From assembly GCA_051294375.1 (NCBI GenBank), contig CM119265.1, forward strand, positions 11,533,818 through 11,597,817: DNA of 64,000 nt, written 5' to 3'. Numbering within the stretch: the stretch's first letter is position 1; each line of letters begins with the position of its first letter. The notes beneath the pieces are model-generated. The model ran no database searches, had not been told where the DNA came from, and worked only from the letters and a program-made list of their open reading frames with translations. Shown here in pieces: positions 20,101 to 45,000 of this stretch. This stretch comes from Paraspadella gotoi (taxonomy: Eukaryota > Animalia > Chaetognatha). The translations under genes were made by a program, and so were the position numbers.

Positions 20101-22163
20101 CTGGTAAAAATTCTGGTAAAATATCGATGTAAAAACACTTGATTCCGATCCTGTTGCATCTGAAGGGCTCGCATTTTTTTTCTCTTGTCAAATCATCAAC
20201 ATCTTGATATCAAACAAGCCAGAACAAATAGACTGCTTCTGGACGGAAAAATTTTCCATCTGATTTTATATAGAAATGAAAGGGATTTTTTTTCTTTGAA
20301 AACGATATAAACGTGACTGAGGTATGTTCCTGTTCAACAAATGAGGTCCAATTTTGGAATCCTTTGGCAAAGTGTCTGAAGGGCTCTCAAAATTTTTCTT
20401 TACATTTTATTAGGTTATTTTGATATGATACGATCATGGTAAAGTGAATTAGTCCATTTTGGTGAAATTTTTATTTAAAGTAAAAGTAAAAGAGGAGCTA
20501 ACGACCGGAATTCTAAGAGTTTTCAACCGGGAGTCAGATTCGGGAAAAATCTTCTATGGCGAAAATCTTCCAAAGAGGGTGAATTTTCCGAAGATTTTGG
20601 TTAATATTTTCTATATTTATAGTCGCATTTTTTTGAAACTTAATATTAACAATATTGCCATCATTCTACCTTGGCCGGTATAAGAATATATTAAAAAAGC
20701 CTCGGGCTTTGTTCGTCAGAGCTTAGTCCTATTTAGAGATTAAATTGCTCGTAAGATCTGTCACGTATTGCTTGGGCAAAAAAAAAAGCATGCTATAGTA
20801 TAAAACTTTTTTTATTTACTTTTCTCTTTTGAACTTTCTCTCTGTCCCTCTCTCTTTCTCTTTGTTTTTTCCCCCTTTTTCTTACTTTTCTCTCCTCATA
20901 ATTATCTGTGTCATCCATTCTTTTTTCCTTTACCTTTATTTCCCTTCCGCTCTATCTCTGCTTTTCTCTCCCTCTCTGATTCTCTTTCTTCCTTCTTGTT
21001 CTTTCTTTCTCTCTTAATCATTCTCGTTCTTCCTCTTCTCCCCATATAATAACTCGGGCTTTGTTCGTCAGAGCTTAGTCCTATTTAGAGATTAAATTGC
21101 TCGTAAGATCTGTCACGTATTGCTTGGGCAAAAAAAAAAAGCATGCTATAGTATAAAACTTTTTTTATTTACTTTTCTCTTTTGAACTTTCTCTCTGTCC
21201 CCTCTCTTTCTCTTTGTTTTTCCCCCTTTTTCTTACTTTTCTCTCCTCATAATTATCTGTGTCATCCATTCTTTCTTCCTTTACCTTTATTTCCCTTCCG
21301 CTCTATCTCTGCTTCTCTCCCTCTCTGATTCTCTTTCTTCCTTCTTGTTCTTTCTTTTCTCTTAATCATTCTCGTTCTTCCTCTTCTCCCCATATAATAA
21401 TTTTTTTCCACTTGTTCTCTCAGAAGTCGAAAGTGAAAATGGACAAAAATGGACAGGATTTTACCCCCTAAATGTTGCAAAAATTGTACTTTTTTATCAT
21501 TAGAAACAGGTAGAGATGATTTTAACCAATCCCTAGTTCGGCCCAATTTGTATTGTGGTACAAATTAAATTAATATTGTAAGTAACAACTGAGCAATATT
21601 AGAAAAAGTTGTTTTTTTGCTAAATGCGACGTTTGTAAGCGGAACCATAATTAAAAGAGAGATAGAGAACGAGAGAGAAGCTGGATAGCCTTTTACACTT
21701 ATAATTTACGATGGTAAAGAAGCGTGACGCTGCCACCAACGACAACGACGGTCACAAAAAAGAAGAGGCGATTCTTAATATCGCCCAAGTCAGGCTTTTG
21801 CCCGTTTGGCGAGATAAAAAAAGAAAACTACTAATCTCAAACTTCGGCCGAATAAAGAATGCGAAACCCCACCCCTTTTTCTGCAATTCGATTTCCCATC
21901 CCCCTCCCCATAAATTCGACTGACCTGTCAAAGTCGACGCTTGCGTCGCTAAACAACGCCGAGTGAAACATTTCGAATCCGGGATCTACTGTGACGAGCG
22001 CCGCTAGACCGGTGACGCCGACTTCGTGCACCGTGGCGCGGTCCAACGACGCCGCCTCCTTCTCGTCGAAGAGAAGAGAAACTCGTTTTCGGTCGGACGC
22101 GAACTGCGAAGTGACGTGCGGCAACGTCAAAGCGCGCAACTGCTGCGCCAAAGGAGTCGTCAT
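2176..22163 (-). CDS. HEATR1: HEAT repeat-containing protein 1 / U3 snoRNP protein UTP10 (BP28), 5' part; gene continues past window position 1
   Basis: Exons 22163-21925, 5543-4852, 4777-4325, 4095-3479, 3119-2974 and 2899-2176 have GT-AG boundaries with consistent phases (957 codons). The N-terminus MTTPLAQQLRALTLP..KRVSLLFDEKEAASLDRAT and FLFRLSPFVLLRPAQKALEWLFFRFQIHIFNADSLLLALLPFHETNLFVRAVQ match the UTP10/HEATR1 N-terminal signature. The length of intron 1 is inflated by assembly duplication. Confidence 0.93.
6470..6879 (-). mobile_element. Same LTR (6879-6627) followed by a PBS-like TGG motif, a short internal segment, a (CT)n run and a repeated LTR 3' end
   Basis: On the minus strand the LTR end GCCATA is followed by AG-TGGTGAGCCC (from 6624), the usual LTR-PBS spacing. 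The LTR terminal 27 bp recur at 6506-6532. Possible AAAC duplication at 6466-6469 and 6880-6883. Artefactual duplicate at ~13562-13972. Confidence 0.6.
7557..14650. other. Assembly artefact: error-rich duplicate of 3107-7556
   Basis: 7557 to ~10130 re-reads HEATR1 exons and introns with dense indels. ~10130-12690 is C/A-rich noise with embedded exon fragments. ~12695-14650 is near-identical to 5598-7556. Confidence 0.9.
14072..14715 (+). mobile_element. Non-autonomous DNA transposon with TAGG...CCTA termini (7-bp-TSD family), diverged subfamily; the same copy begins at 6979 before the assembly break
   Basis: Ends are TAGGACTAAGCTCTGACG and GTCGACTCCTA, flanked by TTTAGAA / TTTAGAG. Homologous along its length to 42964-43917 and 51739-52478. 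Confidence 0.75.
14648..20705. other. Assembly artefact: ~3-kb direct duplication either side of a 25-N gap (17666-17690)
   Basis: 14648-17665 and 17691-20705 differ almost only by homopolymer indels. Confidence 0.88.
17766..20731 (-). mobile_element. 7-bp-TSD TAGG...CCTA transposon carrying a nested 2.2-kb TIR element; duplicated artefactually at 14723-17665
   Basis: Ends are TAGGAGTCTACG and GCTTAGTCCTA, with TTTAGAG on both sides (17759-17765 and 20732-20738). Confidence 0.75.
17849..20090. mobile_element. 2.2-kb AT-rich non-autonomous TIR element with 4-bp TSD (ATAA); duplicate at 14806-17049
   Basis: TIRs GACACAATGAAAAAT / ATTTTTCATTGTGTC with ATAA on both sides. The empty site CAAACAATATAAACGCTCC is visible in the paralogous host copy at ~43035-43053. 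Confidence 0.8.
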
Positions 22164-22530
22164 ATTTATTTTTGTTTGTAACAGTTAAAAGAAAATTAGC
22201 ACCGATAAGAGAAAAGTATATTATGTATCTTTGATCTGAAAAAAAAAAGAAGTTAGAATTATACATAGTTCTTCGGCATAAATTGGTGTCGGGCTTCGGA
22301 AAAATAAAATATTCGTGCGAATGTAAATATGTTTTGTATGTATTTTGTATAATATTTTCAGTAGTGAAAGAATCAGATTTTTGTCAAATTTTTATAACAT
22401 TTGTTCGTAGACTAAGTAATATTAAATAATATTAAAGCCAAGGAGGATGGGGCAATTGATGCTACAAAAGATATTAAAATTAACCCCTTTTGGACCTTCC
22501 GATAAAAACGGTTAAATCGCCTCTCAGCTA

Positions 22531-24139
22531 CTAAACGGTGTCTTCCCAGAAATAGACCCAAGCCTCGACCACCTTTCTCTGATACGGCAAAACCGCTCTT
22601 TGTCCAAAAGCCGCAAACGCAGCTCCGAAGATCGCGCCGCCCAAGTGAGCCGCGTGATCGAATTTTTTAAAACCCATCAAAAGACAGGCGGCGTCGAGGG
22701 CGATCACGAGAGCAAGGACGACAATGCTCGGCATGGAAACGCCCGACAGATAATACATGACCAAGTCATCGTTCGGGTACAAAACGCAAACGGCAGCGAA
22801 GAGACCGAGCGCTGCGCCGGAAGCGCCCTTGGTGTCGAAACTGTGACGACGCGCCACCTTAACTGCGTGGGAAGTCAGCGAAGCGATCGTTCCCGCGGAC
22901 AAGTAGAGCGCAATCGCCGTCTCTTTGCCCAAGTTGTAAACGGCCGAGGGAAGCGAGTAAACGAAAAGGAACATGGTGGCGATGAGATGGAAGAAGCTCG
23001 AATGAGAAAAAATGGAAAGGATCATGGGCAAGCATGTCGATTTGCTGAAGGGATTCGAAGTGAAGAGACGACGCATTGTCCGGGTGGGAAAAACAAACCA
23101 CAATAGGTAAACCATTAGGTTGACGATGATCCAACTCAAAATCAGCTTCACTCGACAATCACGCCGGTGCAAATGAGAACGTTAAGAATAAGAATATTCG
23201 TCGACAAAGGAGATTACAGAAATATAAAAATATTGTCTCACTAATTAACAGCTAATAACTATTGTAAACTTCGTTTCGCAGACGTTTTGGTAAAACACTG
23301 AACATAATAAAAGTATTATGGCAACAGCCGGGTTGCCTGTGATGCCCATTGGGATGGGGCATCTCACTGTTGGCTTTGGGGACTTCCGACCCTCAGTGAC
23401 GCATCCAGTCACTGGCGCGGTTACCCTAGGACGGTCTCGCTTTGCCAACGCAGAGGGAAGTCATTAGGACTGTGGATGGAACACTACGCCTGGGATGGTG
23501 TGTTCCCCCTCTGAGCCAATGGATTTGGCTGAACGATGGTGGACGTGAGGCGGTGTGAATATACCGCCACAGTATCCTTATTTTTTTATGGTATTGGAAA
23601 TCTTATGATTTACATATATATCAGTGAGGTTACGAAAATTGCAAACTTACAATTTTTTTTTTTATATTTAAAAAATATAATTGAATCCCAAATATTCTAT
23701 AAATACTTGGTCTTTCCCTACCGTCCTCATTAGCGACCTTGCTTTCGTCCTTAATTCGACCCCACTTGGAATGTTGATACGAGGCCTTCGCGTGAGTCAT
23801 GGAGAACAGGCGTTGAGGATCGGGATTTCTGGAAGTCCTGGACTCGATCCTCGCCTCCTCGTAAGTGTAAACCGCGGAGATGGCGAAGGCGCCCAAGCAA
23901 GTGACGGCGGCGAAGAGGACGGGTTTCAGCAGGAGGCGTCCGAATCCGCCTGCGAGTGGGTCAGGAACTTTCGAACCCAATTCTCTTCGGTAACCGGAAC
24001 CGATGTTTTCCCTTTCCGATTCTCTCTTTGGATCCATAATCGAAAAGCGACGGCGAAGGGGCGAGGAAAGAGCGGACGGAACAACAGAGAACCGAGTTTT
24101 AGGTAAAAGAAAAAATGCCTGGCGGAAAACGGAACACAT
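22531..24139 (-). CDS. PARL: Mitochondrial rhomboid intramembrane serine protease, PARL-like
   Basis: Exon 1 (24139 to ~23722) encodes an Arg/Ser-rich presequence-like N-terminus and LLKPVLFAAVTCLGAFAISAVYTYE. Exon 2 (~23151-22531) encodes FTSNPFSK..CLPMILSIFSH, catalytic GASG and FDHAAHLGGAIFG. The exact exon-2 acceptor is uncertain (GAG at phase 1 or AAG at phase 0). Confidence 0.88.
23317..23571 (-). mobile_element. Solo LTR-like element (255 bp), highly structured, in the PARL intron
   Basis: Minus-strand termini TGTGGC...GCCATA, flanked by the 4-bp duplication GTAT (23313-23316 and 23572-23575). Near-identical copies at 6627-6879 and 13720-13972, and a diverged partial copy at ~39715-39911. 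Confidence 0.7.
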
Positions 24140-24754
24140 TTGTCTTTTAGCGGCAGAAACTTGTCAGACTTTCAAGACTCGAACACCAGGTAACGTTAAC
24201 AAAAGTTCAAATATTTTTAAAGATATTTCTCTTTAAACTTTGCGTTTAAACGGTGAAAAATAAGAAAATAGAAATGATAAAAGGGTGAGAAATTTAACCA
24301 GCAAATTTTTTTAAGCGCAAATGTAAAGAATGATTGAAAAAGGCACAGAATCAAATGCTGTAAATATAAAAATATCAGTATATAAGAAATATAACAATAT
24401 TATCACATCGACGTTACATAACTTGAAATTGAAAAAAAAAAAAACGCATCGGCAAATTTGTGGCTCAAAGATAGGCAAGATAGATAAGAGGAACAGCAGC
24501 TAAGACTGAAGAGATCAAACAAAAACTACGTAAAATAACAATAGATTTGTAAAGGGTGTAAAATTAGAAAAACGACTGCCTCCGTAAAAATAACAATATA
24601 AATTCGAATATAATTTCAAAACAATCGGTGCTAGATTGAGTAGAGATAGATCCGTTAAAATAATTTTGTACATCAAGTTGTACATAACGAATTGGGAGAG
24701 GAATAGGCCTCTCAGAGAAGGAAGTAAAACTAATTCCCAATGAATAGGAAGTAA

Positions 24755-27700
24755 CTACCACATTTCGCACTTGTCGGCCGGGTTCATCCGCGACCCGACG
24801 GGACACTGAAATGCCCTGGAAAATTCTGGAGAATTCATTAAAAACCCATTGACCCGCTGTTGATCAGGGGTGTGCTTCCCGTGAGCGATCCGCTCCAACA
24901 AGCTCCACGGGCGGTGAAGGCTGCAAGATATCTGAGCTGAGGACAAAAAGAAAAGCTGATTTCGGTCGAAGGCAATACCCGGCAGCAAGGGCTCCTGGAC
25001 GCCCCGAGTCTCGGCCCACTTCCGGTACGCGGCATAGGCAACTTTGACGCCCACACGATCCGCCACGTTTTCCGTGAGAGTGTAATTCCCGTCGAGAGGG
25101 TAGGACTTCCCAAAAGCAGGAATGAAGACCTTTTTCGCCGAGTACTGATCCGCGAAGCAGCGAGACTTAAGGTGAAAAAAGGCGGCGTCGGAGGGCGACC
25201 ACCAGGGGCGTAGGTTGCCGTCCTTGTCGTACCGGCCGCCGTCGTTGTCGAAACCGTGAGCGATCTCGTGGCCTATCACCTTTTAAATAAAAAAAAATTT
25301 ATTCCTCAAACAATAATGTGAGGCGAATTACCACCGGTCTCTCTCTCTAAACCCTTCCTCTCTCCTCTTTCTCCGTGCCGGTCAATCCACACGGTCACTT
25401 TGCCCAAGCTTTGGTAATGACCTTAGATTGACCGGACCCAGTAATAGGGTCGAGGTCAAGTTGGTCCGGGCAATGATAAGAGTGAATCAGGAGAGAGCTC
25501 GTCTCACTTCTTTTCTACTTCTATGACATCGTCACAATCCCTCACCTTTTTTCCTACCTTTATTTTCTCGTATTTTCGTCCTCTACAAATGATTATAAAG
25601 TAGAAACAAACTACCGCTGTGATTTTTTTTCTCATAAAAACTAACCTTGCCAACGCCGCCAAAGTTAAGGTAATTCGGGAGCTGAGGATCGAAGTAAGGA
25701 TCATTGAGGATGGCGGCCATGATGCTAAACTGGTTCCTCGTCGGCGAATAATAGGCGTTAATTTGGTAGGGCATTCGCGGCCAAACCCTCTTCGACGGCT
25801 TCCTGGCCAACAACGAAAACTGCGACACCTTTCTAAGCACCCGCGCGTCTATCATGTTCTTGAAGAACTTTTCGGGTCGCACGGGAACCGAGCGAGTCAG
25901 CCGGTCTACGAGTGTGTCGTTGAGTAGGTAGAGCGGGTAGGCCACCTTGTGAGTCATGGCGCGCGCCTTTTCCTCGGCGTACGATCGGGCGAAAGAAGAC
26001 ATCCAGTTGACGCGACGAAGGTTGTCGACGAATGCGTCGCGGACGACGTCGACGAGTCGTTCGGCCTGTTCTTTGACATCGGGACCCACCTTCGCTTTGA
26101 CGTACATGGAGGCGAGAACTTGTCCGAGGAGGTACTTGGAGTAAGAGACGCACTTCCGGGATCTCGATATCTGAGGAGTCGGCCCAGCGAAGTGCAATTT
26201 CTCGCGGGCATCTCGCATCCTCTGCGGCAGCAACGGCGCGATTTCCAACAACAGCTCTGTCATCAAAAAGTCGTTGAGCGTGTCTTCCTCTCGAGTCCAA
26301 AACTTCAGGAAGCTGTTGGCTCGCATGAGGTATTTTGGCGAGCTGATGTACACCTTGGTCTCGGGAGACATGAAGTAATTAAAAGGCATGAAGCTGCTAA
26401 GTAGCCTGATCCAATCCAGCGCCGGCATGAATTTGGTCTGGAGGTCATCGATGGTATAGCGATGCCAGAAGGACTCGTCGGCCGCATCGCGCAATGCCGC
26501 CATCTCAACGCTCTTTGGCGTTGGCTGAATGAGCAGCCGCATTCGGTTGGCGTCCACGTAGCGGCACGCCTTCTCCCTCGCCACGGGTACTCCGGCAAAG
26601 ACGGTAAAAATCTCTCGGTAACGGTCGCAGAATACATTGTAAAAGGCGACGGCTTCGGCGCCGTTGCCACCGCGGAGCAGCGCCGGCGGTAGCGAGGGCA
26701 GCTTCCAGGGATCCCAAGGTCGGATCTGCAGAGCGTGATGTAATGAGTCGCGTGGGTCGACGATGACACTGAGGTCGAACAGCGGGAAGACGCCGAGGAG
26801 AATGAGATTGGAGGCGACTGAGGTCAAGTCGAAGGACGACGACGACGAATCGCGACGGACTTTGGGTTTTGCGGCGGCGGAGAGAAGAGCGAAAGGACGA
26901 AAATCGGTGGCGCTGGCGGCGGATCGAGGAGATCGCGATTCAAATTCTAAATCCGGAACGGCGTCCACGACATCGACGGAATCGCGCCATTTCCAACCGC
27001 GCGACATTTGACGGCGTCGATCGGCTTCTTCGTCTCGAAATCCCAGCCACTGATCTTCCTCCAGATCTCCTCCGCCACCTCTCAGCCTCAACGAATCCGC
27101 AAAACGGAAATCGTCGGCCAGCAGCAGTGGGTCTTCGACCTCCCTTTCGAAGGTCGACGCGGCGGCGGCGCGGAGCTGATGAAATTGGCGTCGCCACAAC
27201 ACCCTTGGATCAGATCCGTCGGCTCCGTAGTGAAAGGGTTGGGCGCGAGGGCGAGTAGGGTCATCAGAATCATCAGAATCACGGCGTCCCCAGTCGCCCG
27301 TCAGGTTCATTCCGCCTACTTTCCGGATTAACTCTCTGCCCAGCGCCATGCCCTTTTCCTCGATCGCAGCCTCATCCATGCACGACCGGTAGAAGGTCTT
27401 GGCCTTGGACACGTGCAATGGGTCTGAAGCGGAAAATGCGGCGCTTAAAGTGTCGGCAAAAAACCTCTCCGTTTCGCGTTCCACGTGCGAAAATGCGTTG
27501 ACGTGATCCCGTCCTTCTGGGACGCGCGCTTTGTCGCGCCAACCGCCGCAAGCAAATTCGTAAAAATCCTGGCAGGGGTCAGCAGAGGTATTGATGGCGC
27601 TAACGATACGTGCAGCGGTTCGGATGCAGGGCGGCGTAGAGCAAACGTCCGGTAATCGTATGTCGTCGGGGCTACTGCGAGGACGCTGCGAAGTCGCGGC

Positions 27701-28105
27701 GGCCCGTTTGACCGTCGTCGATCGCGGGTTCTTCGTGACGTCGCTCTCGCAGATCGGCGCCACTGGGACGCCAGAGTAGGCGGCATCAGCGTCGCCGTAA
27801 AGAAGGAATCGGCCGATGGCGTCGAAGACCGGAATGCGCAGGTGGCGCTGACCGTGAAGATACATGGCGACCCCGAAAAATGCGCCCAGGAGAATTAGAA
27901 TGACCATGGACCAGACCAGCGTGAGTTGGCACCCGGTGGCGCGGCGCTTGCGCGGAAAGAGACTGACGTTGCTGGAGGTTTCGTGACGAGAGGAAGGCGT
28001 GGCGGAGGCGGAACGAGATGTTGCGGCCATCGCGTCAGAGCGTTGAGCACGTCGATCGGCCAGAAGAAAGTTTCCTCGCAAAACGCGATCGAGCGGAGGA
28101 TGCAT
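24755..28105 (-). CDS. Neprilysin / endothelin-converting-enzyme family (M13) type II membrane zinc metallopeptidase, ~994 aa
   Basis: Two exons, 28105-25646 and 25279-24755 (phase 0). Motifs: N-terminal TM helix, CSTPPC..DPCQDFYEFACGGW, INAYY, GHEIAHGFD (HExxH), ENVAD (third Zn ligand) and C-terminal CEMW. Confidence 0.93.
25317..25508. mobile_element. ~190-bp inverted-repeat-bounded structured insert in the M13 intron (solo LTR or MITE-like)
   Basis: Termini TGTGAGGCGA / TCGTCTCACT; internal 10-bp stem CCGGTCAATC/GATTGACCGG. No TSD found. Confidence 0.4.
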
Positions 28106-28487
28106 CGAGATATTTTACTTATTTTAGTAATCTTATGATTTTTTTTCCCTTTTTAGTCTTTGTGCCTCATTTAAATATCCTTTGTGATTCGGAAATTTTA
28201 AAAACTCGAATCCAGAAAGCGTGGATAGTTAAACTTCGATGTCATTCCCGCCAGAAAACGCTTTTAGGTCTGCAAAAGCGTCGACGGCGACTCGCAACTA
28301 CCCCCCTTTGGCAACAAAGAAACAATGAGATCAGTAAAATCAATTATCAAAAATAACGGAAAAGTAGTCGTACTCTCCGTTTGCCAAGGCAATTAATAAT
28401 TTAATAAAGAAGGAATGCTTAACAATATAAAAAACTAAAAAAATCAAAAACTAAACATAAAAAAGGAAAAAAAAGAAGATTGTCAAT

Positions 28488-31400
28488 TCAGACATTTTCG
28501 AGTTTTTCCAACTCGTCCATGTCCTGAGCGTTGAGCGGCTCGATCGCCCGACCGAAGTGAGACTCGATCTTCTTAATGTTTACAATGTCTCGGTTCCCTT
28601 CCACCATTGTAATGGCGATTCCCCTCTTGCCGAATCTTCGAGAGAAAATAAATCAAAATAATGAGATAGTGAAACCGTGTTGCTCGCTTCCCATCGCCCC
28701 ACCCGCTATCCTTCACCTGCCCGTCCGGCCGATCCGGTGCAAGTAGGTATCGTAATCCGGTTCTCCCGTTCCGCTGACGGTGGGCAGGTCGAAGTTAACG
28801 ACGACGGTGACCTGCGCCACGTCGATCCCGCGAGCGCTCACATTCGTCGAGATGAGAATCTTCTCGTTGCCTCTGGAGGTGTGAGAAAAAGAGAAGAGTG
28901 AGAGATGATAATGACGAAAGTCTGTATTTAAATGATTATCAACCTGCGAAATCTGTTGATTATAACAGCTCTTTGTTCGATGTCCAATTCTCCTGACAAG
29001 AGGCCGACGAGATGCCCCTCCTGCCGCAACTTTACCGCCAGCCTTATTAAAGAATACGTTAATAATGAATTAAAGATATCGCCAAGACAACATCGAATGA
29101 TTAAACGGCGAGATTAAACGGAATCGAATCAATAAAAATAACTCTCTCGCTTGAAAAGATCGTCGCCACGTGACCAATCAGCTTACAAGTTGATTCTCAC
29201 TCGCGTTCAATTCACAAATAATTGTTTTTTTCGAAATCTCGTCCGTTTTCTCTGTTGACACAAATAAAATAAAAATAAAAATCAAGAGACGACTGATCTT
29301 CGACCTACCAGTTGGCATCTTTCCGCGTCCGACAAAAAATGATGGCCTGCCCGATAGTGATGGTCCCGTAAATATTAACGAGCGCCTCGAATTTGTCTTC
29401 GATAGCGTGACAGGCTATGTAAAAAGCCTTGATGTTGTCGAGACTCTCCTCTTCCCGCAGAAGGCGGATGATGACGGGGTTGGGGACGATTTTCTCCGCG
29501 AAAGATATTACGTCTAGACGGAGGATTATTTTTCTTTTTCATACCATAAACCCATTCATTTAACTTTAATAAAAATAATCTATAAAAATCTTAAAAGTAT
29601 AGCGATCTCGCCAGACGTTAATATCAAAGAAAATTAATAAAAGAATAAAAAAAAACTTAAAAGCATAAGGATCGTCGCATTTAGAGTTCCGATAACCGTT
29701 AACAGTTAACGGTTATTAACGGTTAAAAATAATTGTAACTTAACCGTTAATATATTTAGTTATTAATTAATAAATATTTTTTTCAATTTTATTAAAGTAA
29801 AGTATATCATTATTGAAAGATAGTTTTAGTTAGCCTTAATGTCTTTTCAAAGATTTATTCCTTCTATTGTTCATTTTTTAAATGTATTTTAATAAATTTT
29901 TTTAAAAAATTTATTCGGTTTTATTTTATTTACTTCTTTGTTCATTTTAAAAAGGGAAAGAAAAAGTAAGAAAAAGGAAAATTATAAAGATTATTTATTT
30001 TTTTATTAGCAATATAGAATAATATTGCATGTAAGAATTTTATTTGCAAGAAAATATATGCAGATGCATATTTCTTTGATGTAAATGTATAAAATTAACT
30101 GAAAGGAAAAACGAAAACAATTAGGAGAAAGTAGGTAAAAAAATTCTGAAAGGGCCAAAAAAAACGATAAGAGATTAGGATAGAAAAAAGATTAAAAGGG
30201 TTGAAAATAACAAAGGAAAAAAAAGGGAAAAAATGTAGAAGAGATGGGGGAAAATTATAGTGAGAAAGGGAGAGGAGAATAAGAGAAGACAGAAAAAAAA
30301 ACTTTTCTCTTAAAAAATCAAAGTTTTCCTAACAAAAAATAACAAAAATCATACTTGAAAATTAACCGAATTTAACCGTTAAAATAAATAAATTAACGGT
30401 CAAGTTAAAATTATTTTTAACCGTTAATAACCGTTAACTGTTAACGGTTATCGGAACTCTAGTAAAGACTAAAGTGAAATAAAATGAAATGAAGTAAAGT
30501 AAAATAATAAAGTAATAAATATATATTGAAAAAATCTTAAAAGCATAAGGATCGTCGCAATAGCATAAGAAAAATCTGGATTGACGACAAATTTTGATAC
30601 TAAAAAAAAGAAAATTTGAGAAAAAAAAATTAAATTATAAACAAAGAAAAAAAAATAAAAAAAAATAATAAAGTACAGAAGAAAATTAAAGTTACAGTTT
30701 CTGAAAAATAGCAAAATAATAACATGAATAATAACATGAATAATAATAACATAAAAAAATATTATTCTGATTGATAATTAGAATATTTAAGAAAAAAAAT
30801 CCACGAAAATCTCGGATGTAAATTTGGGAATAAATGGTGATAATAAAAGTTTTTAGAGGGAAAAAATTATTTAGAGAGAGAAAGAGAAAGAGAGAGAGAG
30901 AGAAAGAAATAAATCAAAAGGCAGCAGCAGAAGCAGCAGTTGAAAAGAGAGAAAAAGAACAATATAAAAGACCTCAATGATGAGAAGCCATATCTAAATT
31001 TTCAGCTTCCTATGGTTACTAAGGCGGGTCAAAATTGAACACTTTTAATTCTCTCAAAAAAATTCCTTTTTTCCTTCTATTACTAAATCGATTTTCAATG
31101 TAACTTTTTGAATTAGTTCATTGGGTTGTTGCACTGAAGCTTTTAAATATTTATTAATATATAACAAATGACAAAAATTTTTTTTTTGAAAATTAGTTTT
31201 TAAGAACGGATTCCTATAGAGCTTGAAAAGTTAAATGAAAGTTAGTACTACAATTTTTAAAAATTTTGACAAGAAATTGGTTAAAAACAGAAAAAACGTT
31301 AAAAAATCATCATCATCATCATCATTGGCTGAATTTTATAGTTTTTTAAAATTTTTATCAATAAAACAAAAAAATTTTAAAATTTTGTATTAATAACCTT

Positions 31401-34400: not shown

Positions 34401-37400
34401 GTCTGAACTTTCCAAATCTGGGGGAACAAAGGCGTAGATTTCGTGGTTTCATCGTGAAATTTATTATTTTATGGAGCTGGTCGGCATAAATTGCGCTTAT
34501 TTTCGCTACTCGTCGCTCCTCGTCGCTCTCGAAATTTTTACACCGCCTAATCATCTAATGCACGATCAAAACCAAATTTCGCACTCCTTCGCAGTTCGTG
34601 GCCGCACTGCGCGCTGAGGTCGAATCCCTGACGATTGACCATCTCAGCGCGATCCTGGCCGAGGTCCTCCCAGCCCATGTGGTCGGAAGGGTAGTCAGCG
34701 ATGGGGACGAGACGCCGGAAGCGATCGCCAAGAAGGCAGACGCATTTTACTCTGCCCATGGTGATCTTCAGATCACCTCAAAACCCATTGGAAAAGTCGT
34801 CAGTCATGTTGAAACCTCCAATCGATGGGGCATCTTTGAGGACGACCTTTCCGACTCAGAGTGCGATGAGTATGCGCCCGACTTGGCGGATGATGCATCT
34901 ACCACAGAGGATGTGCCTCCACGCACGTACGCCAGCGTGTGCCGCGACTTCCGGACGTGGCCAACTATGCCCCAGGACACAGGTCCGACCTGGCTACCGA
35001 AGACCAGCGACAACACAGCAGCGCCGTTTCCCCAACAACAGCAACAGCACACCAGTTGCAAACTCTTTCAACTCCTCTCCTGATTTCATCAATGGACTTT
35101 GTTTCTATCATCGGACATTTGGAGACCGAGCAATCAAATGCTACCCAGGATGCAAGCGGGGAAACGGTCGAGCCAGCAGCCGGAGGCAGTAAACGCCGTT
35201 GCTGGTAGTACAGAACCCTTACTGCACGTGTACGACAACAACAACAACTTGACATGGCTTGTGGACGGTGGTGCAAGCGTCACTTTGATGGCACCTTCGC
35301 CATCAAAAAAGCTCCGTGGTGGCTCTGCGCCTCAACTTTATGCTGCAAACGGGTCTCCAATCTCTTCCTACGGCACCAAACAAATCACTATCAGACTAGG
35401 AAGACGCACATACTCACTAACAACCGTACTCGCTGGCGTTACGACCCCTATTCTTGGAGCTGATTTTCTGATGGAGCATCATTTAGCCGCCGACCACAAG
35501 CTCGGCCTACTCGTTGATCTTGATTTTTCAACAATCGCTGGCAAATCTTACCTGGACAGGCCTTTCAGAGTCAATACAGTCAATAATGCCTATTTCAAAT
35601 TGATTGACGAACGCCCAGAACTCACACAACTCAGATTTGAGCCTTCGAAGACCAAGCACGGTGTAGAACACCACATTCCAACCAAGGGTCTGCCTGTCCA
35701 CTCCCAAGCACGCCGACTTGCACCTGGACAAACTCCAAAGCAGCCAAAGAAGAATTTGCAAAAATGGAGAAGCTGGGCATTATACGGAAGAGCAAGAGTG
35801 CTTGGGCATCACCACTACATGTGGTTAAAAAACCTGACGGCTCACTTAGATGTTGCGGCGACTACAGGCGCCTCAACGCAGTCACAAAAGACAACCGCTA
35901 CCCCATCAAAAATTTGATGGATTTCAACGCACATGTCGCAGGCAAAACAATTTTTTCAAAAGTAGACCTTTGTAAAGGCTACCATCAAGTACTGTAGCAG
36001 AGCAGGATATTTGCAAAACAGCCGTCATCACTCCCTTTGGCTCTTGGGAATTCCCGTTCACCCCATTTGGTCTCAAGAATGCAGGGCCTGATTTTCAAAG
36101 GATGATGGACGAAGCCCTCAAAGATGTACCACACATCTTTGTATATCTAGATGACATCCTGGTCGCCTCAAGCAACGAGAAAGAACACATGCAAGATCTC
36201 ACTACTGTTTGACACGCTGCAAGCAAATGGTTTAGTAGTGAACAGGGCAAAATGCGTACTGGGCGTACCATCACTCGACTTTTCTCGCGTTACCAGGTAG
36301 ACGCAACAGGCGTCAGGCCATTGGACACAAAAGTCGAACACATCAAGCAATTCTCCCAGCCAACATCAGTCAAAGAGGTTCAAAGATACTTGGCATGCTC
36401 AAATACTACTGGCGTTTCATTCCACACATTGCCGAAGTCCTTACACAATTATACCAAGCCTTAAAAGGCAACCCCCGAGTCCTTAAATGGACCGAGGATA
36501 TGACTCAAGCCTTCAACAAGTCGAAGAAGCTCTAGCAAACGCAACTATGCTTTTCCACCCTGTGGACGGGCACCTCTGGCCCTGACCGTCGATGCGTCAC
36601 TGACGGCCATCGGCGGCATCCTGGAGCAGAAGATTGGTGGTCAATGGCAACCCTTAGGCTTTTTCTCAGCCCCGCTAGCTCAGAACCAGACAAAATGGCC
36701 ACCTTTCGACGGGAACTCCTTGCGCACCACCGCTCAGTCCGGGCACTTCAGGCCCTTCCTGGAAGGGCGCTACTTCGTTCTGTTTCTCTGACCAGAACAG
36801 CCTAGTTCCCGCCATACGCAAGAAATCTGAGGCCACACTCAATGCGTCAAACATATTAATTATCTGCCATCTCCAAATACACAACAGACATTTGATACAT
36901 TGAGGGCAAGGCCAACGTGGTAGCGGACACACTATCAAGAATCATCAGCCCAGCAAGCAGTGGCCCAGAACCTGAGGATCATCAGGACCTTCAGAAATGC
37001 CCTCTTTGGTCGCAACGGTCAACGCAGTTGGCCCCCAAGCGGTCGATTTTGCCGCTTTAGCCGGTGACCAGAGTTCTGACGAGGAGATCCAGCGACTCCG
37101 TGCGGACGCCCACACCAGGCCTGGCGATTCAAGATAGTTCTTGCCTGAACGACTTTGACATCTGTGATGTCAGTTCAGGCACGGCGCGCCCTTGGTTCCA
37201 CAACTTGGCGCCGTCGAGTTTATGATGCCATCCACAACCTAGCTCAGGGCTCAGGCTTGCCTTGACTGCCAGCGCAGCAAGGTACAACGACCACACCCAG
37301 GCTCCACTACAACCTTTCGAAGCACCATCGAGGCGTTTCGAACACATTCACATTGACTTGGTGGGTCCTTTGCCCACCTCAGGCGGTTACACGTACCTGT

Positions 37401-40400
37401 GTAGACCGTTTTTTCTCGCTGGCCTGAAGCATATCCAGCTCCATCCTAAATTTTTTTCCAGCTCCGACTCCAGCTCCACTAAAAATTTTGAGACAGCTCC
37501 AGCTCCCCGCTCCCAGCTCCGACCCTTTAAAGTTTAATGATTAATGTTTGCTTATATTAAATTAGTTCTAATTTTATTAATTTACTTATTTGCTTATATT
37601 TAAATAAATAATAATTAATTAATTCATGTATGAAATCATTTGATAATTCATTTATTAATAATAATTATGTATTTTTTAATATTTAATGTATGAGAACACG
37701 ATTGTACTTAAATGTAGACAAGAGAGTATAAGAGAGTAAGAGATAAACATTTACTCCCCACATAATTAATAGTTTATTTACTTTATATAAAAATAACATT
37801 TATCTAAAATTTTACTTTTACATTTTAAAATATTTTGATTATTTATCAGGATTTTACTATCTTAGTTTAAGGCTCAGTATTTCATGAGTTATGCTGCATT
37901 GAATTCTGTTTCATGTGATCACCTTTTAAGGTGATCAAGAAAAGTAGGATACTTATGCACGTTAAAGGTCTTTACCTTAACCTTACCTTACCATCTGACC
38001 CCACCGACCGACATAAAAGGTGGCTACAGTTAGAGTAAGGGGAAGGTCTCACTCCCAATGCCAAGGAACCAAGGACAAACTTTAGCCCGCCTTGTCTTAA
38101 GGCAAGAAGAGGGCAGCCGGCAGACATATCAGGTCAGATGAAGTAGCCCAAGGCATTTTTCCAAGAGGTCCATAAAGTCTGGGAACTCAAGATCCAAATG
38201 ACCTATGACATGCCAATGACCCGGTCAAGTCGTCACTTGCTTTCCTTGTCCAGAAGCGGGGGGCCAGCTCTTTCTTCTCTTATTTTTTACTAACTCTCTT
38301 CTTTTTAATGTAGTTTATTGTTACTTTTACAATTTATTATTTAAAATGATAATGTTTGCAAACTTAAATTGTTAAATATATTAACTTATCTCAACTATCT
38401 CTTTCTTTATCCCTCACTCTTAGTACTTATTCTAAACCTGTCTTTAACCTCCCACTGTTTTTTCTTATTTTTTTTGGAAACCTCTCTCTCTCCCTCTTTC
38501 ACTTTTCACACACGCAAACCTTATAATTTGGCAAAAATTTTCACAAATGATTTATTAATTTTTTGCAGTCTAATGTTTAAAAATTTTCATTTTTTCTCCT
38601 TTTCAAAATAAATTTGTTGCATAAACAAAAACAAGAACGGTCATATCCAATGTTTTGCGCCACAGTGACTTTCTTTTCATGTGTATTTCCATGTGATCAC
38701 ATGATTAGAAAATTATTTAAAAACAAGTTTGAGCAAACAATGTCGGATCTGCCCACAATCATTATCGGTAATTAATTAATTAATTTATTTAATTAATAAT
38801 TAATTTATTCAAGTTAATTATTTAATTAATTATGAATTAATTTGATCCAAAATGTTTGTTTTGATTGATTAATTAACTGATTAATTAATTGATTAATTAA
38901 TTGACTAATTGATTAATTAATTAATTAATTATTTGATTAATTATTACATCTTGCATTTACATTTAAAATAAAAAGAAAAAGAAGCATAATCAATTAGTGA
39001 AACAGGTTCTTTGTTTTTCATTTAAACTCATTTCCACTCAACGATTCTATCGAAACTTGATTTCCAGTTTAATCACCACTTTTCTACCCAAATACAAAAT
39101 TTCAAGTCAATCGCCCATCCACTCATGAGTAATATTTTTTTGTTTTTTCCATTTAAACTCATTTCCACTCGGACGATTTCTATCGAAACTTCATATCCAG
39201 CCTCAATCAACACACTTCCCTACCACACACAAATTTCATTCCAATCCATCCATCCAATCACGAGTAATTGGTGTTTTTAGATGGTGGATTTGTGGATTGG
39301 TGAATTTAGATACTGTATTATATGGGGCATAATGCCCTGAGGCCAAAATTCGGAAAAATTATATTATTATTATTATATAATTATCTGAGTATATTATGCT
39401 GTATAAATAACATAGATTGATGGTTTATAAGTCGGGGACCTAATCCCGGTAATTGTATGGTACTGCAGCTTTAATTTTTTTTTAAATTTTTTTTTAAGAT
39501 ATAAAATTTTAAAGTACTAACTGATTTTGGCTTATTCTATAAATTTTATTTTTTAATTGAGAATTCCTTTTAAGGTATTTTAATAGGCCCACAAGGTACA
39601 AATTCTTTATATAATTAACTACAGAAGCTATAGAGGCTGATGATATAAATTGTAATTTTTTAAAATATAATTTTGTTAAAAAGAAAATAAAACTCCTTAT
39701 CTCTCTCTTTTATCACTGTTAGCTTTGGGGGCTCAGTATCGCCTCCAGTCACTGGCGCGGTTACCCTAGAACTGTCTCGCTTTGCCAACTCAAAAAGAAA
39801 TCGTTAGGACTGTGGATGGAACACAACGCCTGGGATGGTGTTTTCCCCCTCTGACCCAATGGGATTGGCTGAACGATGATGGACGTGAGGCGGTGTGAAT
39901 ATACCGCCACACTGTGATAATTTTCTATTAAAAAAAAAAAAAATTAGGCTCCCACAGCTGGAATTGTAAGTTGTGTCTCGAATACAAAAAAATTACTGGA
40001 AAATTCATTGCCTTTTTTCGAAATATTTTATTTTAATATTCATTCTGCTAATGGCCTACCATCATGAATATTTATCTCTATATTTGTCACGTCAATATGC
40101 TTAATTATATTATATTTAGAATTAGATTGTTTGAATTTTATGACGCGTCCACCAAGTCCCTGACAGTTTTTAACTATCGATCTTTTGCACACGAATTTAC
40201 GAATTCACACCTACGCTGCTTCAATCTTAGAATGCGACGAAGGAGGATCAAAGGTAAAATATATACTATTATATAGTATTTACTGTGTGTCCCAATGGTA
40301 CTTTCCATTAAAAAAAGCTTACTACTTGTGCTTACTACTAGTTACAAAAACTTTTTCAATATTTACATCACCTGCAGCGCTAGCTCATAGGTGGGCGAGA

Positions 40401-41841
40401 GAATAAGAACTTGCGGATGCGGTTGCGTAGGGTCGACCTTGTTGAGGGAGGCGATGGTGAAGGCCGCTGTTTTACCGGTTCCGCTTTGACTCTGAAAGGA
40501 GAACGAAGATTCACGTTTAGCGGTGTTGGAACAAAGACAACGAAAAAAAACAAGATCGGTTAATGTAAGGAACAAACTTGTCGTCGCCCCTTAATGCAAA
40601 CTTATGGTAGCCTAGGCTGTCTGTAAAATTAGTTCCTTAAATTAAGGCTTAATTCTCCCACGAGCGAGATTAAGAATTAAAATTGTAACGGACCTGCGCA
40701 ATAAGATTCTGTTTCGGATGTCCGAGAAGAAGAGGAAGGGCCGTCTCTTGAATCTTTGACGGTTGATTGTACCCCAAAGCGTAAATTCCTGTCGTTTTCA
40801 TGGAAACAATGCAGACCATATATTATCCTTAGAGTGAAAACGGGAATTTTCTTTCTCCCTTTCTTTCTCCGCACCCTTTAATAAATCCGGTCGAAGATTC
40901 AACTGATCAAAGGTTGAACAGGAGTAAAGCGGGGAGTTGGGATCCTTCCGTTGCACTTCCACGCTGTCCGTCACGAACTGATTCAAGACCGTATTCAAGT
41001 GTTTGTTCATCAACGAAATCTCTTCAGCCTTCGGGTGGTCCGTATCTTCCGTTCCCGCCACGACGTCCACAGCTGCAGCAGCCACTTGAGTCTTTTCCGG
41101 AGAAATGGCGGCATCGCGCTGCCGTGTGAAAAAATCGAGCGTGGAATCGGCGGCGGTGGCGAAAACGTCCAACTCTCCTCCGGGGCATTCTCCAGATCGG
41201 TTGGCCGCCAAATGAGCAAGACTCTCGTCCCTGAGCGTCTGTAGCTCGTGACTGGAGCAGGCCGAGAGTCTTTTGATCATGGCGAGTGAGGCTTGGGCCT
41301 TGGCCAATTTCTTGCTCGGCCTGGTCGACGTCTCCACGAGGGAGCCGCACGATACCTTGACGCTGACACCGAGGTGGGGCCTAGAGACGTCGAAATGGTA
41401 CTCCGGATATGGCAGGTGGTGGAGACGAATAAAGTCTAACAGCGCCTGGACGGGATGGTGCCCGCCCAAGTCCACAGAAGACGAAGATGAAGAGAGGGAA
41501 CGTGGAGTGACGTTGGAGAGCGGAGCCGGGGCTGGAGAAGGAACTGAGTGATCCACGGAAGGTACAAGGGCTTGCGTCAACGTTCGGGACAGTTTTTTAA
41601 AAGGGTCGGCGATGGGCGATGTCCTACTTCCAAAGAAGGGCGTCGACGTGGGAGCTGAAAAATCAGCAGAACCGAAGACGTTGGACGTTGGCGCTGGATT
41701 CGACAAGCTATACTGTGCGGCTGTCGCGGTTGTCGCGGCGGCTGCAGGGTTGGCCTTGATGGAAGAAATATCAGAAGAACAAAGTCCTCTCGCTTCCTGG
41801 AGATCGACGCTCGTCGCCCAATCGTCGTCGTCCAAAGCCAT
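28488..41841 (-). CDS. DDX19: DEAD-box mRNA export helicase DDX19/DBP5 (DDX19/DDX25 family), ~699 aa, with an extended N-terminus
   Basis: Exons 41841-40875, 40788-40694, 40491-40372, 33081-32902, 31878-31749, 29513-29309, 29042-28944, 28872-28717 and 28635-28488 total 2100 nt in an open frame. Motifs: [11 protein letters not shown]-motif [66 protein letters not shown]. Confidence 0.95.
29584..31745 (+). mobile_element. HINE-like element (ATCTCGCCAGA subfamily) filling DDX19 intron 5
   Basis: 5' AAAATCTTAAAAGTATAGCG-ATCTCGCCAGA (29605-29615). 3' TCTGGCAAGAT-AAAAA (31729-31745), ending 3 nt from the exon. Confidence 0.6.
29682..30461. mobile_element. hAT-like MITE with TAGAG...CTCTA termini and TAACCG/CGGTTA subterminal repeats; related half copy ends at ~45784
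   Basis: TAGAGTTCCGATAACCGTTAACAGTTAACGG is matched by CCGTTAACTGTTAACGGTTATCGGAACTCTA. No clean TSD seen. Confidence 0.7.
31906..32855. mobile_element. MITE with long (~200 bp) TIRs and TA target duplication (Tc1/mariner-like); right half also at ~1695-2100
   Basis: TA|CACGGTGACAATTTTACAAGC ... GCTTGTAAAATTGTCACCATG|TA. The arms are reverse-complementary over ~200 bp. Confidence 0.8.
34560..37402 (+). mobile_element. Decayed Ty3/Gypsy LTR retrotransposon internal region (gag-PR-RT-RH-INT, truncated) inside DDX19 intron 3
   Basis: Gag Cys motif [18 protein letters not shown]; protease [10 protein letters not shown]; [29 protein letters not shown] and VYLDDILV (~36141); RNase [17 protein letters not shown]; integrase [17 protein letters not shown] cut off at ~37402. 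Many frameshifts; no flanking LTRs recognised. Confidence 0.9.
37965..38270 (-). mobile_element. Putative short retroposon (SINE or LINE 3' fragment) with a (TAAGG)n-type tail
   Basis: GC-rich ~300-bp island in an AT-rich intron, bounded on one side by TACCTTAACCTTACCTTACC, a short tandem tail on the minus strand. Confidence 0.35.
39715..39911 (-). mobile_element. Diverged partial copy of the 255-bp LTR
   Basis: Same terminal GGCGGTGTGAATATACCGCCACA and internal hairpins as 23317-23571, with substitutions. Confidence 0.75.
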
Positions 41842-42020
41842 ATTTTCAAGTATTCCGAACCTTGAAATTTTGGTATAAAATTATAACACAAAATGGAAAT
41901 TACCCAGTAACTCGGAACGAAAAAATTAATTAGGCTAAAGATTTGAAAAGAGAACAGAGGGATTAACATATAAATGGCAACGAGAGTAAGAGCTTTTTTA
42001 AGAATAAAATCACTCATTCT

Positions 42021-45000
42021 TCAATGTTGCTCGTCGGTTTTCGGCGACAAACGCAAAACGAAGAGAGAATTGCCGGCGCAGGGGGCCCCAGCCGTCACCA
42101 CTGCGACGTCAGCGACGTCGGGGAAAGCGAGTCGAAAATCTCGGGCTAGTTGGAAAGGGTCCAGAATTTTGGCTCCGCGGGTGTGAGAGGGCGCCACGAA
42201 AAAGGCAGACTTGGTCCAGTTCGCGGCTGCGCCCAAGTTGGCCAATTCGGCTAGAACTTTAGCGGCGAAGGCATCGAAGTGAGGAACCAGACGGGGATTG
42301 GTCGGGAGGAGTAGGAAGGCCTCGTGCTTGCCCGGTCCGGGTCGAGCTGAGTAAAGGCGTCGGCGTAGAAGTCTGTGGAGGAGATGGCAAGATTTGTTGG
42401 CGTCGTCGTCGACGAAAAAATGATCCTAGAAAAGGAAGGATTTTTCAATGATTGTTTGAGATAAATAAATATTGAAGGCGTGAGGAAATAGAGGGGGAAA
42501 AAAAAGCATAAGGATCGTCGCAATCGCATAAGAAAAATCTGGATTGACGACAAATTTTGATAATAAAAAAAATAAAATTTGAAAAAAGAAAATTAATTTA
42601 TAAACAGAAATAAAAATTCTATTTTGCGAGTGTCAATTAAAAAAAATAATAAAGTACCGAGGAAAATTAAAGTTACAGTTTTTGAAAAAAGAAAAAAAAA
42701 ACAAACTTTTTCATTATCAAAAAATAAACTGATCAGCAGAAAAAAAAAAAAAAAATGGTAACATGCACAAATGCGATGAGAGAGAAGCCAAATCGTTTTC
42801 GGACAAATCAGCAGCAGCAGCAGCTGCACAGGCAGCCAGACAAAAAGAAAGCAGCAGAAGAAAAGAGAGAAAAAGAAAGAGCCCCTGCAGAGCCAGCTGC
42901 AGATACGTTTTTTTTCCAATGAATAAGCACTGGGGAAAAGAGAGAGAGAAAGCTACATAAAATTAGGAGTCTACGTCGTTCTTAGAGATCGAGGAAGACT
43001 TTTTCAATGGAGATTTTCGTTCAAATCTGACTACCAAACAATATAAACGCTCCTGGTAAAAATTCTGATAAAATATCGATGTAAAAACACTTGATTCCGA
43101 TCCTGTTGCATCTGAAGGGCTCGCATTTTTTTCCCTTGTCAAATCATCAACATCTTGATATCAAACAAGCCAGAACAAATACTGCTTCTGGACGGAAAAA
43201 TTTTCCATCTCTGATTTTATATAGAAATGAAAGGGATTTTTTTCCTTGAAAACGATATAAACGTGACTGAGGTATGTTCCTGTTCAACAAATGAGGTCCA
43301 ATTTTGGAATGCTTTGGCAAAGTGTCTGAAGGGCTCTCAAAATTTTTCTTTACATTTTATTAGGTTATTTTGATATGATACGATCATGGTAAAGTGAATT
43401 AGTTCATTTTGGTGAAATTTTTATTTAAAGTAAAAGTAAAAGAGCTAACGATCGGAATTCTAAGAGTTTTCAACCGGGAGTCAGATTCGGGAAAAATCTT
43501 CTATGGCGAAAATCTTCCAAAGAAGGGGTGAATTTTCCGAAGATTTTGGTTAATATTTTCTATATTTGTAGTCGGATTTTTTTGAAACTTAATATTGAAG
43601 AGACAGTAATTATTGTTATGAGTTAGTGACAGAACTGTTCAATATAAGCAGTCCCTGAGCTTCGGATCAGGCTGTAACACCATGTTACAGGCGGGTTAAG
43701 CGCCCCGTCCCTCTTAACTGTCAGACGACCACCGGGTTAGAACCCCGGACCTTTGGGTTGGGAGGTGAATGACTTGCCTCCGGCACCAATGGCCGCTGAT
43801 GAACGGTTGGTGGATTTTATTCACCATAATATTAACAATATTGCCATCATTCTACCTTGGCCGGTATAAGAATATATTAAAAAAGCCTCGGGCTTTGTTC
43901 GTCAGAGCTTAGTCCTAATATAAAGGAGAAAAGAGAGAGAAGGAGACATAAAAAAAATTTGTTTGTTTTGATAAAGGGTAAACAAAACATTTAATAACTG
44001 TCCTGACCCAATTTTAAGGATATCGATGATGAGAAGCTGTATATAAATTTTCAGCTTCATACACCCAAATTTAATCTTCAAAAAGGCGATCTATAATTTG
44101 GAACGCCGACGACGACGCCACTTATGTGCAAAACTACATTAATATCGTCGCAAACGCAAAGCAATTGCGACGATAAAAATGATGCCATCTTCAATGTCAT
44201 AGCACCTAATGTACATTGTACAAATCAAATTTTGGCCTGATCAAATAACACTTTTTCACATTTATGGAGTTTGTCTTAGATCTAATGGGTACAATATCCA
44301 TTTGCCAAAATTTTGTTTTTTGATTCAATTTGAAGATCATAGGAGGTGCTTGGGCTTCTAAATGAAAGTCGAGCCTCATGAGTTAAGTTATTTTGAAATA
44401 GTTTTACTACTCCAACGTGCGGTCCATCAAACGTTGAGGGGCTGATAAGTACTTGAAAGAATTTTTAAGAAATGCGATCTCTACTACATCTTCATTGCTT
44501 AATGTCGCGGGAATAGAGTAGGGTGGTGGGTGAGAAATGAGCTTAGAAGCTGCATTTTCAAATTGACTTTTCATTTGGTCCGGATTGGCCATTGCTTGAC
44601 CGTTGCAGGTTCATTTCTGGTACCGGTTTTATGTGTGTAGAGCATTTCTGAGCTGGGATTTAAAAAGGGAGAGAGAGAGATTTTGTTGTTGTTGGTGTCA
44701 CGACTTCGGCGTGGGCTTCTTTTTATATTGAATCGGATTTACAGGGAGCGAACTAGTTTGTCTTTTGTCTTGTGGAGCAATTTTGGGTCACGTGACGACG
44801 TGGCTCAGTGAGAAAGCACATGGTCGTCGGGAAAGTCCGGTAAACGATCTTTTGTTAAGTTTGGTGTCGTTTTTTTTTTTCAGGGAGGTCAGGCCGTTGG
44901 AATTTTAAAATTCTATTTTTAATAGTCTGGGAATATAGGATTGTTCGTATGAGCTTTAAATGAAGAAGAAATGTTTTTTTTGTTTATGTAGCTTTATTTA

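What the first reader, a model, noticed from the sequence alone, without database searches (positions are those of the whole stretch)
22163..42425. Five co-oriented genes with tiny spacers: candidate SL-trans-spliced animal operon (ePHD gene - DDX19 - M13 peptidase - PARL - HEATR1)
Seen: all five genes are on the minus strand. Stop-to-ATG spacers are 179 bp (42021 to 41841), 382 bp (28488 to 28105), 615 bp (24755 to 24139) and 367 bp (22531 to 22163). The spacers contain no recognisable transposons, whereas nearly every large intron here is transposon-filled and kb-sized. Each spacer has an apparently unpaired 3' splice-acceptor-like site upstream of the ATG. The clearest is HEATR1, with branch point CTAAC (22256-22252), a T10 tract and CAG (22238-22236), and no strong GTRAG donor between it and the PARL stop. 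The others are DDX19 TAG/AAG at 41937-41935 and 41863-41861, and pyrimidine-tract-plus-AAG sites before PARL (~24238) and the M13 gene (~28305). Known: nematodes, tunicates, flatworms and chaetognaths resolve polycistronic pre-mRNAs by SL trans-splicing, and their operons are enriched for RNA-processing, ribosome-biogenesis and mitochondrial genes such as DDX19, UTP10 and PARL. Inference: this is an operon, perhaps in a lineage where operons are not yet described.
Basis: partly seen in the sequence, partly recalled or inferred. Interest (0 to 1): 0.8.

Follow-up and report, generated by a model that had tools for sequence, protein, structure and literature searches.

The report
Arrow-worm spliced-leader operon
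Five head-to-tail genes in what is likely an arrow-worm genome likely form one operon: an RNA assembly shows the last gene's message beginning with non-genomic letters that match a published arrow-worm spliced leader at the predicted splice site, a way of cutting up shared transcripts already described in that phylum.

Summary
The five minus-strand genes and the four spacers are at the stated coordinates. In the one run that holds the locus, a spliced HEATR1 contig begins with 11 non-genomic letters at the predicted acceptor (22235). They match chaetognath leader SL2.0, and the next 10 published letters predict exactly the 3 mismatches seen. A second spliced contig runs unbroken through M13, PARL and both spacers and stops at that acceptor, as expected for operons without intercistronic DNA, though contig ends prove nothing. 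So trans-splicing is shown at 1 of 4 junctions; the five-gene unit is inferred, and DDX19|M13 is the weakest link. The 'undescribed lineage' claim fails: chaetognath operons are published (PMC2481426; PMC12460157, 18% of genes), and this scan already noted another operon in this genome (e1-10588163). Verdict: real, a new member of a known kind.

The parts
42021..48890 (-). Gene 1, 3' part: exons 48890-48786, 48692-47259, 42425-42021 (a further tentative exon near 51085-50981); unnamed, narrowly distributed protein; 5' end and promoter not readable in the window
41842..42020 (-). Spacer 1 (179 nt); trans-splice site not determined
28488..41841 (-). DDX19/Dbp5 DEAD-box helicase, 9 exons, about 700 aa, with a dsRBD-like insert in exon 1
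   Evidence: PDB match to DDX19B E 3.5e-8; all helicase motifs looked for, no internal stop; last three introns spliced in RNA contig; other introns predicted
28106..28487 (-). Spacer 2 (382 nt); ATTAAA at 28405-28400; candidate acceptors AAG 28308-28306 and CAG 28272-28270; two upstream ATGs; least certain junction
   Evidence: the M13 contig begins at 28275 without a leader
24755..28105 (-). M13 (neprilysin-like) metallopeptidase, 2 exons, about 994 aa from the first ATG, HExxH intact
   Evidence: Pfam PF05649 and PF01431; intron 25645-25280 spliced in RNA
24140..24754 (-). Spacer 3 (615 nt), crossed without gap or cis-intron by the 5,083-nt contig; trans-splice site not determined
   Evidence: record 4
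22531..24139 (-). PARL mitochondrial rhomboid protease, 2 exons, 338 aa
   Evidence: Pfam PF01694; best named relatives are PARL, 39-45%; intron 23737-23146 spliced in RNA
22236..22530 (-). Spacer 4, upstream part: likely PARL 3' UTR that also serves as the HEATR1 outron; no AATAAA/ATTAAA
   Evidence: Covered by the M13-PARL contig, which stops at 22235; hexamer scan
22236..22256 (-). Trans-splice acceptor of HEATR1: predicted branch point CTAAC 22256-22252, T10 tract, CAG 22238-22236; leader joined to 22235
   Evidence: 11 loose letters plus 3 other letters; SL2.0; 2 of 500 shuffles
2161..22235 (-). HEATR1/UTP10, 72-nt 5' UTR, ATG 22163, first intron 21924-5544; the gene likely runs out of the window's low end
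   Evidence: the 6,728-nt contig joins 21925 to 5543

Best explanation
The five genes likely form one operon of what is likely an arrow worm (Chaetognatha), likely transcribed from one promoter upstream of gene 1 and cut into single messages by spliced-leader trans-splicing, which an RNA contig shows at the HEATR1 acceptor. Shown: an SL2.0-type leader is joined at 22235 (one contig, one run); RNA is continuous across spacers 3 and 4 with cis-introns removed. Inferred: the spliceosome uses the branch point and AG in each upstream gene's 3' UTR to add a capped leader to the next gene; the upstream message ends at or within a few bases of that AG (no intercistronic DNA), as in Ciona and in the Spadella RPS14-PCNA operon; DDX19, M13 and PARL receive leaders likewise; repeats are tolerated in introns but not in spacers because the spacers are UTRs and splice signals.
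For:: the HEATR1 contig (6,728 nt, spliced 21925 to 5543) starts with 11 letters absent from the window (0 exact matches), then 10 letters that align to 22245-22236 with 3 differences in the whole 321-letter piece and none listed away from the contig end; 2 of 26 chaetognath leader forms in PMC2481426 Table 3 (SL2.0, 70.83% of Spadella leaders, and SL2.8) hold those 11 letters exactly 10 letters before their 3' end, and those 10 letters differ from 22245-22236 at 3 places (compared by hand); a 5,083-nt contig spans 28275-22235 with 0 other letters, both cis-introns removed, spacers uncut. It stops 1 base past the acceptor AG; PMC2481426 reports 3 bases between poly(A) site and acceptor in Spadella, PMC1488885 zero in Ciona; about 3.0 kb of the DDX19 contig lies before its ATG. 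PMC12460157: about half of Paraspadella genes are trans-spliced and 18% are in operons. CpG o/e above 1 in exons and 0.79 in a retroelement fits the transposon-only methylation that paper reports (weak).
Against: One run, one study, contigs only; the run may be the source of the genome's own RNA. A leader is seen at 1 of 4 junctions, and only 11 of its letters were read directly. A contig across two genes does not show a single transcript, and contigs cannot show an RNA's end. The M13 contig starts at 28275 with genomic letters, no leader. Acceptor-like sites in spacers 1-3 are not above chance. Chaetognaths trans-splice many monocistronic genes too (10,197 trans-spliced against 18% of 21,072 in operons). 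Lack of AATAAA/ATTAAA before the acceptors is not significant (chance of none 0.14-0.51 per spacer).
Confidence: 0.65

Rival explanations
1. Two adjacent operons: gene 1-DDX19 and M13-PARL-HEATR1, with a normal 3' end and a new promoter in spacer 2.
For: Spacer 2 is the only one with a poly(A)-signal-like hexamer before its candidate acceptors (ATTAAA 28405); DDX19 and M13 lie on separate contigs and the M13 contig starts without a leader; PMC12460157 finds signalling genes depleted from operons.
Against: One such hexamer is what shuffles give (mean 1.0); 382 nt must hold a 3' UTR, terminator and promoter; the contig starts 6 letters before a TTTTGCAG; short leader tips may be dropped from contigs (inference).
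Confidence: 0.2
2. Closely packed monocistronic genes, each with its own promoter inside the upstream neighbour's last exon or 3' UTR and each trans-spliced; overlapping UTRs merge in the assembly and mimic a polycistron.
For: Most trans-spliced chaetognath genes are outside operons; contigs merge overlapping transcripts (tool caveat); no promoter data here.
Against: The upstream contig runs to the HEATR1 acceptor itself, leaving no separate room for a promoter; four short same-strand spacers in a row where introns reach 16 kb; the same layout was read as polycistronic in Spadella and Ciona.
Confidence: 0.12
3. The 5' letters on HEATR1 come from an ordinary cis-spliced exon outside the window, an adapter or an assembly chimera; no trans-splicing.
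For: Only 11 letters in one contig; the same 11 letters occur in 10 papers of the library, and of the 9 listed 8 are on unrelated subjects; the rest of the genome could not be searched.
Against: The match is to a leader table, in the right register, joined at a strong acceptor, with the predicted mismatch count; a hand estimate for 11 fixed letters is about 1 in 4 million per leader; a cis-exon would have to skip four genes.
Confidence: 0.03

Closest known systems
Chaetognath SL-resolved operons: Spadella cephaloptera RPS14-PCNA (PMC2481426) and the 1,470 validated operons of Paraspadella gotoi (PMC12460157)
   Same: Same leader family (SL2.0/SL2.8 letters), same-strand genes with very short gaps, housekeeping content (mRNA export, ribosome biogenesis, mitochondrial protease), upstream RNA reaching the downstream acceptor.
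   Different: Other genes; five members if whole (longest reported is nine); spans at least 47 kb because of repeat-filled introns; includes an M13 peptidase and an unnamed gene. Whether this operon is listed in that paper's Supplementary Table could not be seen (xlsx too large).
Ciona intestinalis operons without intercistronic DNA (PMC1488885)
   Same: Upstream 3' end at the acceptor AG, no AATAAA within 40 nt (16 of 18 there; none here before 22236), one leader pool for all positions.
   Different: Unrelated leader sequence and phylum; mostly two-gene units; there the 3' ends were mapped on poly(A) cDNAs, here only a contig end hints at it.
Caenorhabditis elegans SL2-type operons (as described in PMC7986045 Background and PMC1488885)
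   Same: Polycistronic precursor resolved by leader addition.
   Different: About 100-nt intercistronic region and a dedicated SL2; the leader here is of the chaetognath type, no operon-specific leader is reported for chaetognaths, and the PARL-HEATR1 junction shows no sign of an intercistronic gap.

Membership tests
Chaetognath SL-resolved operon | Two or more same-strand genes closely spaced (under 250 bp between gene models in PMC12460157) | tested here: met
   Stop-to-ATG gaps 179-615 nt; with UTRs, RNA of PARL and HEATR1 abuts at 22235 and RNA is continuous between M13 and PARL; contig ends at DDX19|M13 are 74 nt apart
Chaetognath SL-resolved operon | A chaetognath spliced leader on a member gene's mRNA, absent from the locus | tested here: met
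   HEATR1: (11 letters read, 10 inferred from register and mismatch count)
Chaetognath SL-resolved operon | Leaders on all downstream genes (DDX19, M13, PARL) | tested here: inconclusive
Chaetognath SL-resolved operon | Polycistronic precursor RNA | tested here: inconclusive
   One contig crosses spacer 3 and spacer 4 up to the acceptor, but a contig is not a molecule
Chaetognath SL-resolved operon | Single upstream promoter, none in the spacers | not testable with these tools
   No CAGE/ATAC or raw reads; gene 1's 5' end lies in or beyond a poor-quality stretch
Chaetognath SL-resolved operon | SL RNA gene elsewhere in the genome (5S cluster in Spadella, PMC2566580) | not testable with these tools
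   No genome held; none in the window
Chaetognath SL-resolved operon | Organism is a chaetognath | tested here: inconclusive
   Leader type says so (PMC2481426 found no similar leader in other phyla); no named chaetognath protein among hits; an unchecked scan note agrees
Ciona-type operon without intercistronic DNA | Upstream poly(A) site at the acceptor AG | tested here: inconclusive
   Contig stops at 22235, one base past the AG, no tail letters seen; contigs cannot show ends
Ciona-type operon without intercistronic DNA | No AATAAA within 40 nt upstream of that site | tested here: met
   None in 22530-22236; absence is not significant against shuffles
C. elegans SL2-type operon | Nematode SL2 leader and about 100-nt intercistronic region | tested here: not met
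   Leader matches chaetognath SL2.0 (the shared name is a coincidence of numbering); upstream RNA reaches the acceptor
ePHD (zf-HC5HC2H) protein, for gene 1 | Extended PHD finger | tested here: inconclusive
   No Pfam hit in exons 48692-47259 and 42425-42021 or in 4 relatives; about 0.8 kb of its RNA is unaccounted for, so a finger further upstream is not excluded

The most novel reading that the evidence does not exclude
[quoted passage not shown] That would give a second phylum in which to test how a branched upstream RNA becomes a mature mRNA.
Probability: 0.4. Interest if true: 0.42.

Novelty: new member of a known kind. Interest (0 to 1): 0.22.

Why it matters
It confirms that operons can be called from raw sequence and fixes one trans-splice site to the base, but leader trans-splicing and operons are established in chaetognaths. 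The residual value is mechanistic: the PARL|HEATR1 junction is a ready test of the question raised for Ciona (PMC1488885, section 17) of whether trans-splicing makes the upstream 3' end and whether upstream and downstream messages exclude each other.

Tried and rejected
No listed run is on record as RNA; X1 is taken as RNA because its contigs lack GT-AG introns. X2 and X3 laid 0 contigs: no evidence. No laid contig covers 28276-28324 in spacer 2 (bin arithmetic); a hole proves nothing and is not used as evidence. Homologue searches did not name the organism. The Atlas gave no answer for gene 1. Rfam found 0 families in the window. Acceptor scoring and poly(A)-hexamer counts had little power. 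The single-sequence fold of the dsRBD-like insert was poor (pLDDT 48) and the fold search found nothing at E 0.001. Three PDF supplements of PMC12460157 held 0 mentions of DDX19, HEATR1 or PARL; its xlsx tables were unreadable. Scan look-ups for relatives and by words were empty. A leader of 37 letters ending in G was considered: it would put contig letter 12 at 22246, not 22245 as reported.
Full report
Observation. The genes are DDX19 (PDB match to DDX19B, E 3.5e-8; helicase motifs and no internal stop), an M13 peptidase (PF05649, PF01431), PARL (PF01694; named PARL relatives at 39-45%) and HEATR1/UTP10 (PF12397; 39% to a bee HEATR1). Gene 1 has no Pfam family in its two largest exons and only 4 unnamed relatives among 1.84 billion proteins; the ePHD label is not confirmed. 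None of the 4 spacers holds a within-window repeat; two introns of similar size (366 and 592 nt) do attract repeat-derived contigs.

With a matrix from 12 acceptors of this locus (5 RNA-supported, 7 predicted), only the HEATR1 site stands above dinucleotide shuffles (2 of 500; spacers 1-3: 79, 341, 173 of 500). Of 12 donors examined (6 RNA-supported, 6 predicted), 0 are GTRAG, so absence of GTRAG cannot show that an acceptor is unpaired. Poly(A) hexamers are absent before the acceptors in spacers 1, 3 and 4 and present once in spacer 2; neither departs from chance.

RNA evidence. One run (X1) holds 80% of the sampled words; it is not on record as RNA, but its contigs lack five GT-AG introns. 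A 5,083-nt contig covers 28275-22235 with 0 other letters: M13, spacer 3, PARL and spacer 4 up to one base past the HEATR1 acceptor, with no cis-intron in either spacer. A 6,728-nt contig is HEATR1, spliced from 21925 to 5543. Its first 11 letters lie on nothing in the stretch; letters 12-21 align to 22245-22236, the 321-letter piece has 3 other letters, and none is listed away from the contig's end. The 11 letters have 0 exact matches in the window (2 with one mismatch, 1.85 expected).

The leader. A full-text search for the 11 letters gave 10 papers, 9 listed, 8 of them on unrelated subjects and one the chaetognath transcriptome paper PMC2481426. In its Table 3, 2 of 26 leader forms (SL2.0, found in Spadella and Flaccisagitta and 70.83% of Spadella leaders, and SL2.8) contain them, ending exactly 10 letters before the leader's 3' end; those 10 letters differ from genomic 22245-22236 at 3 places (compared by hand). 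Register, mismatch count and acceptor all agree. So HEATR1 is trans-spliced at 22235 to a chaetognath-type leader; 11 letters are read, 10 are inferred. The paper found no similar leader in other phyla, so the organism is likely an arrow worm. An unchecked note of this scan on another piece of the same genome reached the same phylum from proteins and describes a nine-gene operon (e1-10588163); I saw it after forming this reading and did not test it.

How it likely works. One precursor, likely started upstream of gene 1, is cis-spliced and then divided at acceptors in the spacers, each downstream gene receiving a capped leader. At PARL|HEATR1 the branch point, T-tract and AG sit inside what appears to be the PARL 3' UTR, and the upstream contig stops at the AG plus one A. 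In Spadella three bases separate the RPS14 poly(A) site from the PCNA acceptor; in Ciona poly(A) is added to the acceptor G and 16 of 18 operons lack AATAAA. The same design is the best reading here, but contigs cannot show RNA ends, so it is a hint. Shown: leader on 1 of 4 downstream genes; continuous spliced RNA contig over spacer 3 and spacer 4. Inferred: leaders on the other three, a single promoter, a single precursor, 3' end at the acceptor. The DDX19|M13 junction is the weakest: separate contigs, no leader at the M13 contig's start, an ATTAAA; two adjacent operons remain possible (0.2).

Comparison. It works like, and on the features tested belongs with, chaetognath SL-resolved operons: PMC12460157 reports 10,197 of 21,072 genes trans-spliced, 18% in operons, 1,470 validated operons, the longest of nine genes, no operon-specific leader. 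It is not of the C. elegans SL2 type. I cannot say whether this very operon is in print: three PDF supplements gave 0 mentions of DDX19, HEATR1 or PARL and the spreadsheet with the operon tables was unreadable.

Papers seen: PMC2481426, passages including the operon section and section 12 whole; PMC12460157, passages, section 10, search of 3 PDF supplements; PMC1488885, passages and sections 14 and 17; PMC7986045, outline and Background; PMC2566580, passages; others as search listings only. That GTRAG is common in other animals, and that short tips can be dropped by contig assemblers, is recalled, not from a call.

Verdict. A real, trans-spliced, likely five-gene operon in a phylum where such operons are published: new member of a known kind, interest 0.22. 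The boldest reading not excluded is that trans-splicing itself makes the upstream 3' end (probability 0.4, interest 0.42).

Noticed in passing
window 41266-41454 (-): DDX19 exon 1 holds a dsRBD-like stretch between the conserved N-terminus and the helicase core (Pfam dsrm E 0.001, below cut-off; all 7 PDB hits are dsRNA-binding proteins, E 0.018-0.19; fold model too poor to judge). I recall no dsRBD in DDX19/Dbp5; the listing showed no paper on it by title.
   Followed up: partly
window 21924-47258, 12 introns: 0 of 12 donors are GTRAG (e.g. GTCGCT, GTGCGG, GTCCGT); one DDX19 intron near 32901 may use a GC donor. Loose donors in a trans-splicing genome deserve a genome-wide count.
   Followed up: partly
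window 53376-64000: After an N gap the sequence is a largely colinear, gap-rich 62-88% copy of about 47000-52900; likely an unpolished assembly duplicate, which hides the 5' end of gene 1.
   Followed up: partly
window 7559-10053: Three degraded copies (83-90%) of HEATR1 exons 3105-5170 lie inside HEATR1 intron 1, before the gap at 17666-17690; the 16-kb intron may be partly an assembly artefact.
   Followed up: partly
window 34559-37537 (+): Broken Ty3/gypsy-like retroelement (by eye: gag, protease, RT, integrase pieces) in a DDX19 intron, opposite strand; CpG o/e 0.79 against 1.1-1.5 in exons.
   Followed up: no
window 47259-48692 and 42021-42425 (-): Gene 1 belongs to an unnamed family with 4 relatives on short unnamed contigs, whose similarity ends near the same splice donor; candidate lineage-specific gene.
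   Followed up: partly
window 25646-28105 (-): The M13 peptidase has only one intron, a 2.4-kb first exon with a long low-complexity insert in the N-terminal domain, and two short upstream ORFs (ATG 28245, 28170) in its likely 5' UTR.
   Followed up: no
window 49018-49955: Tandem repeat array of about 21-nt units in a gene-1 intron.
   Followed up: no
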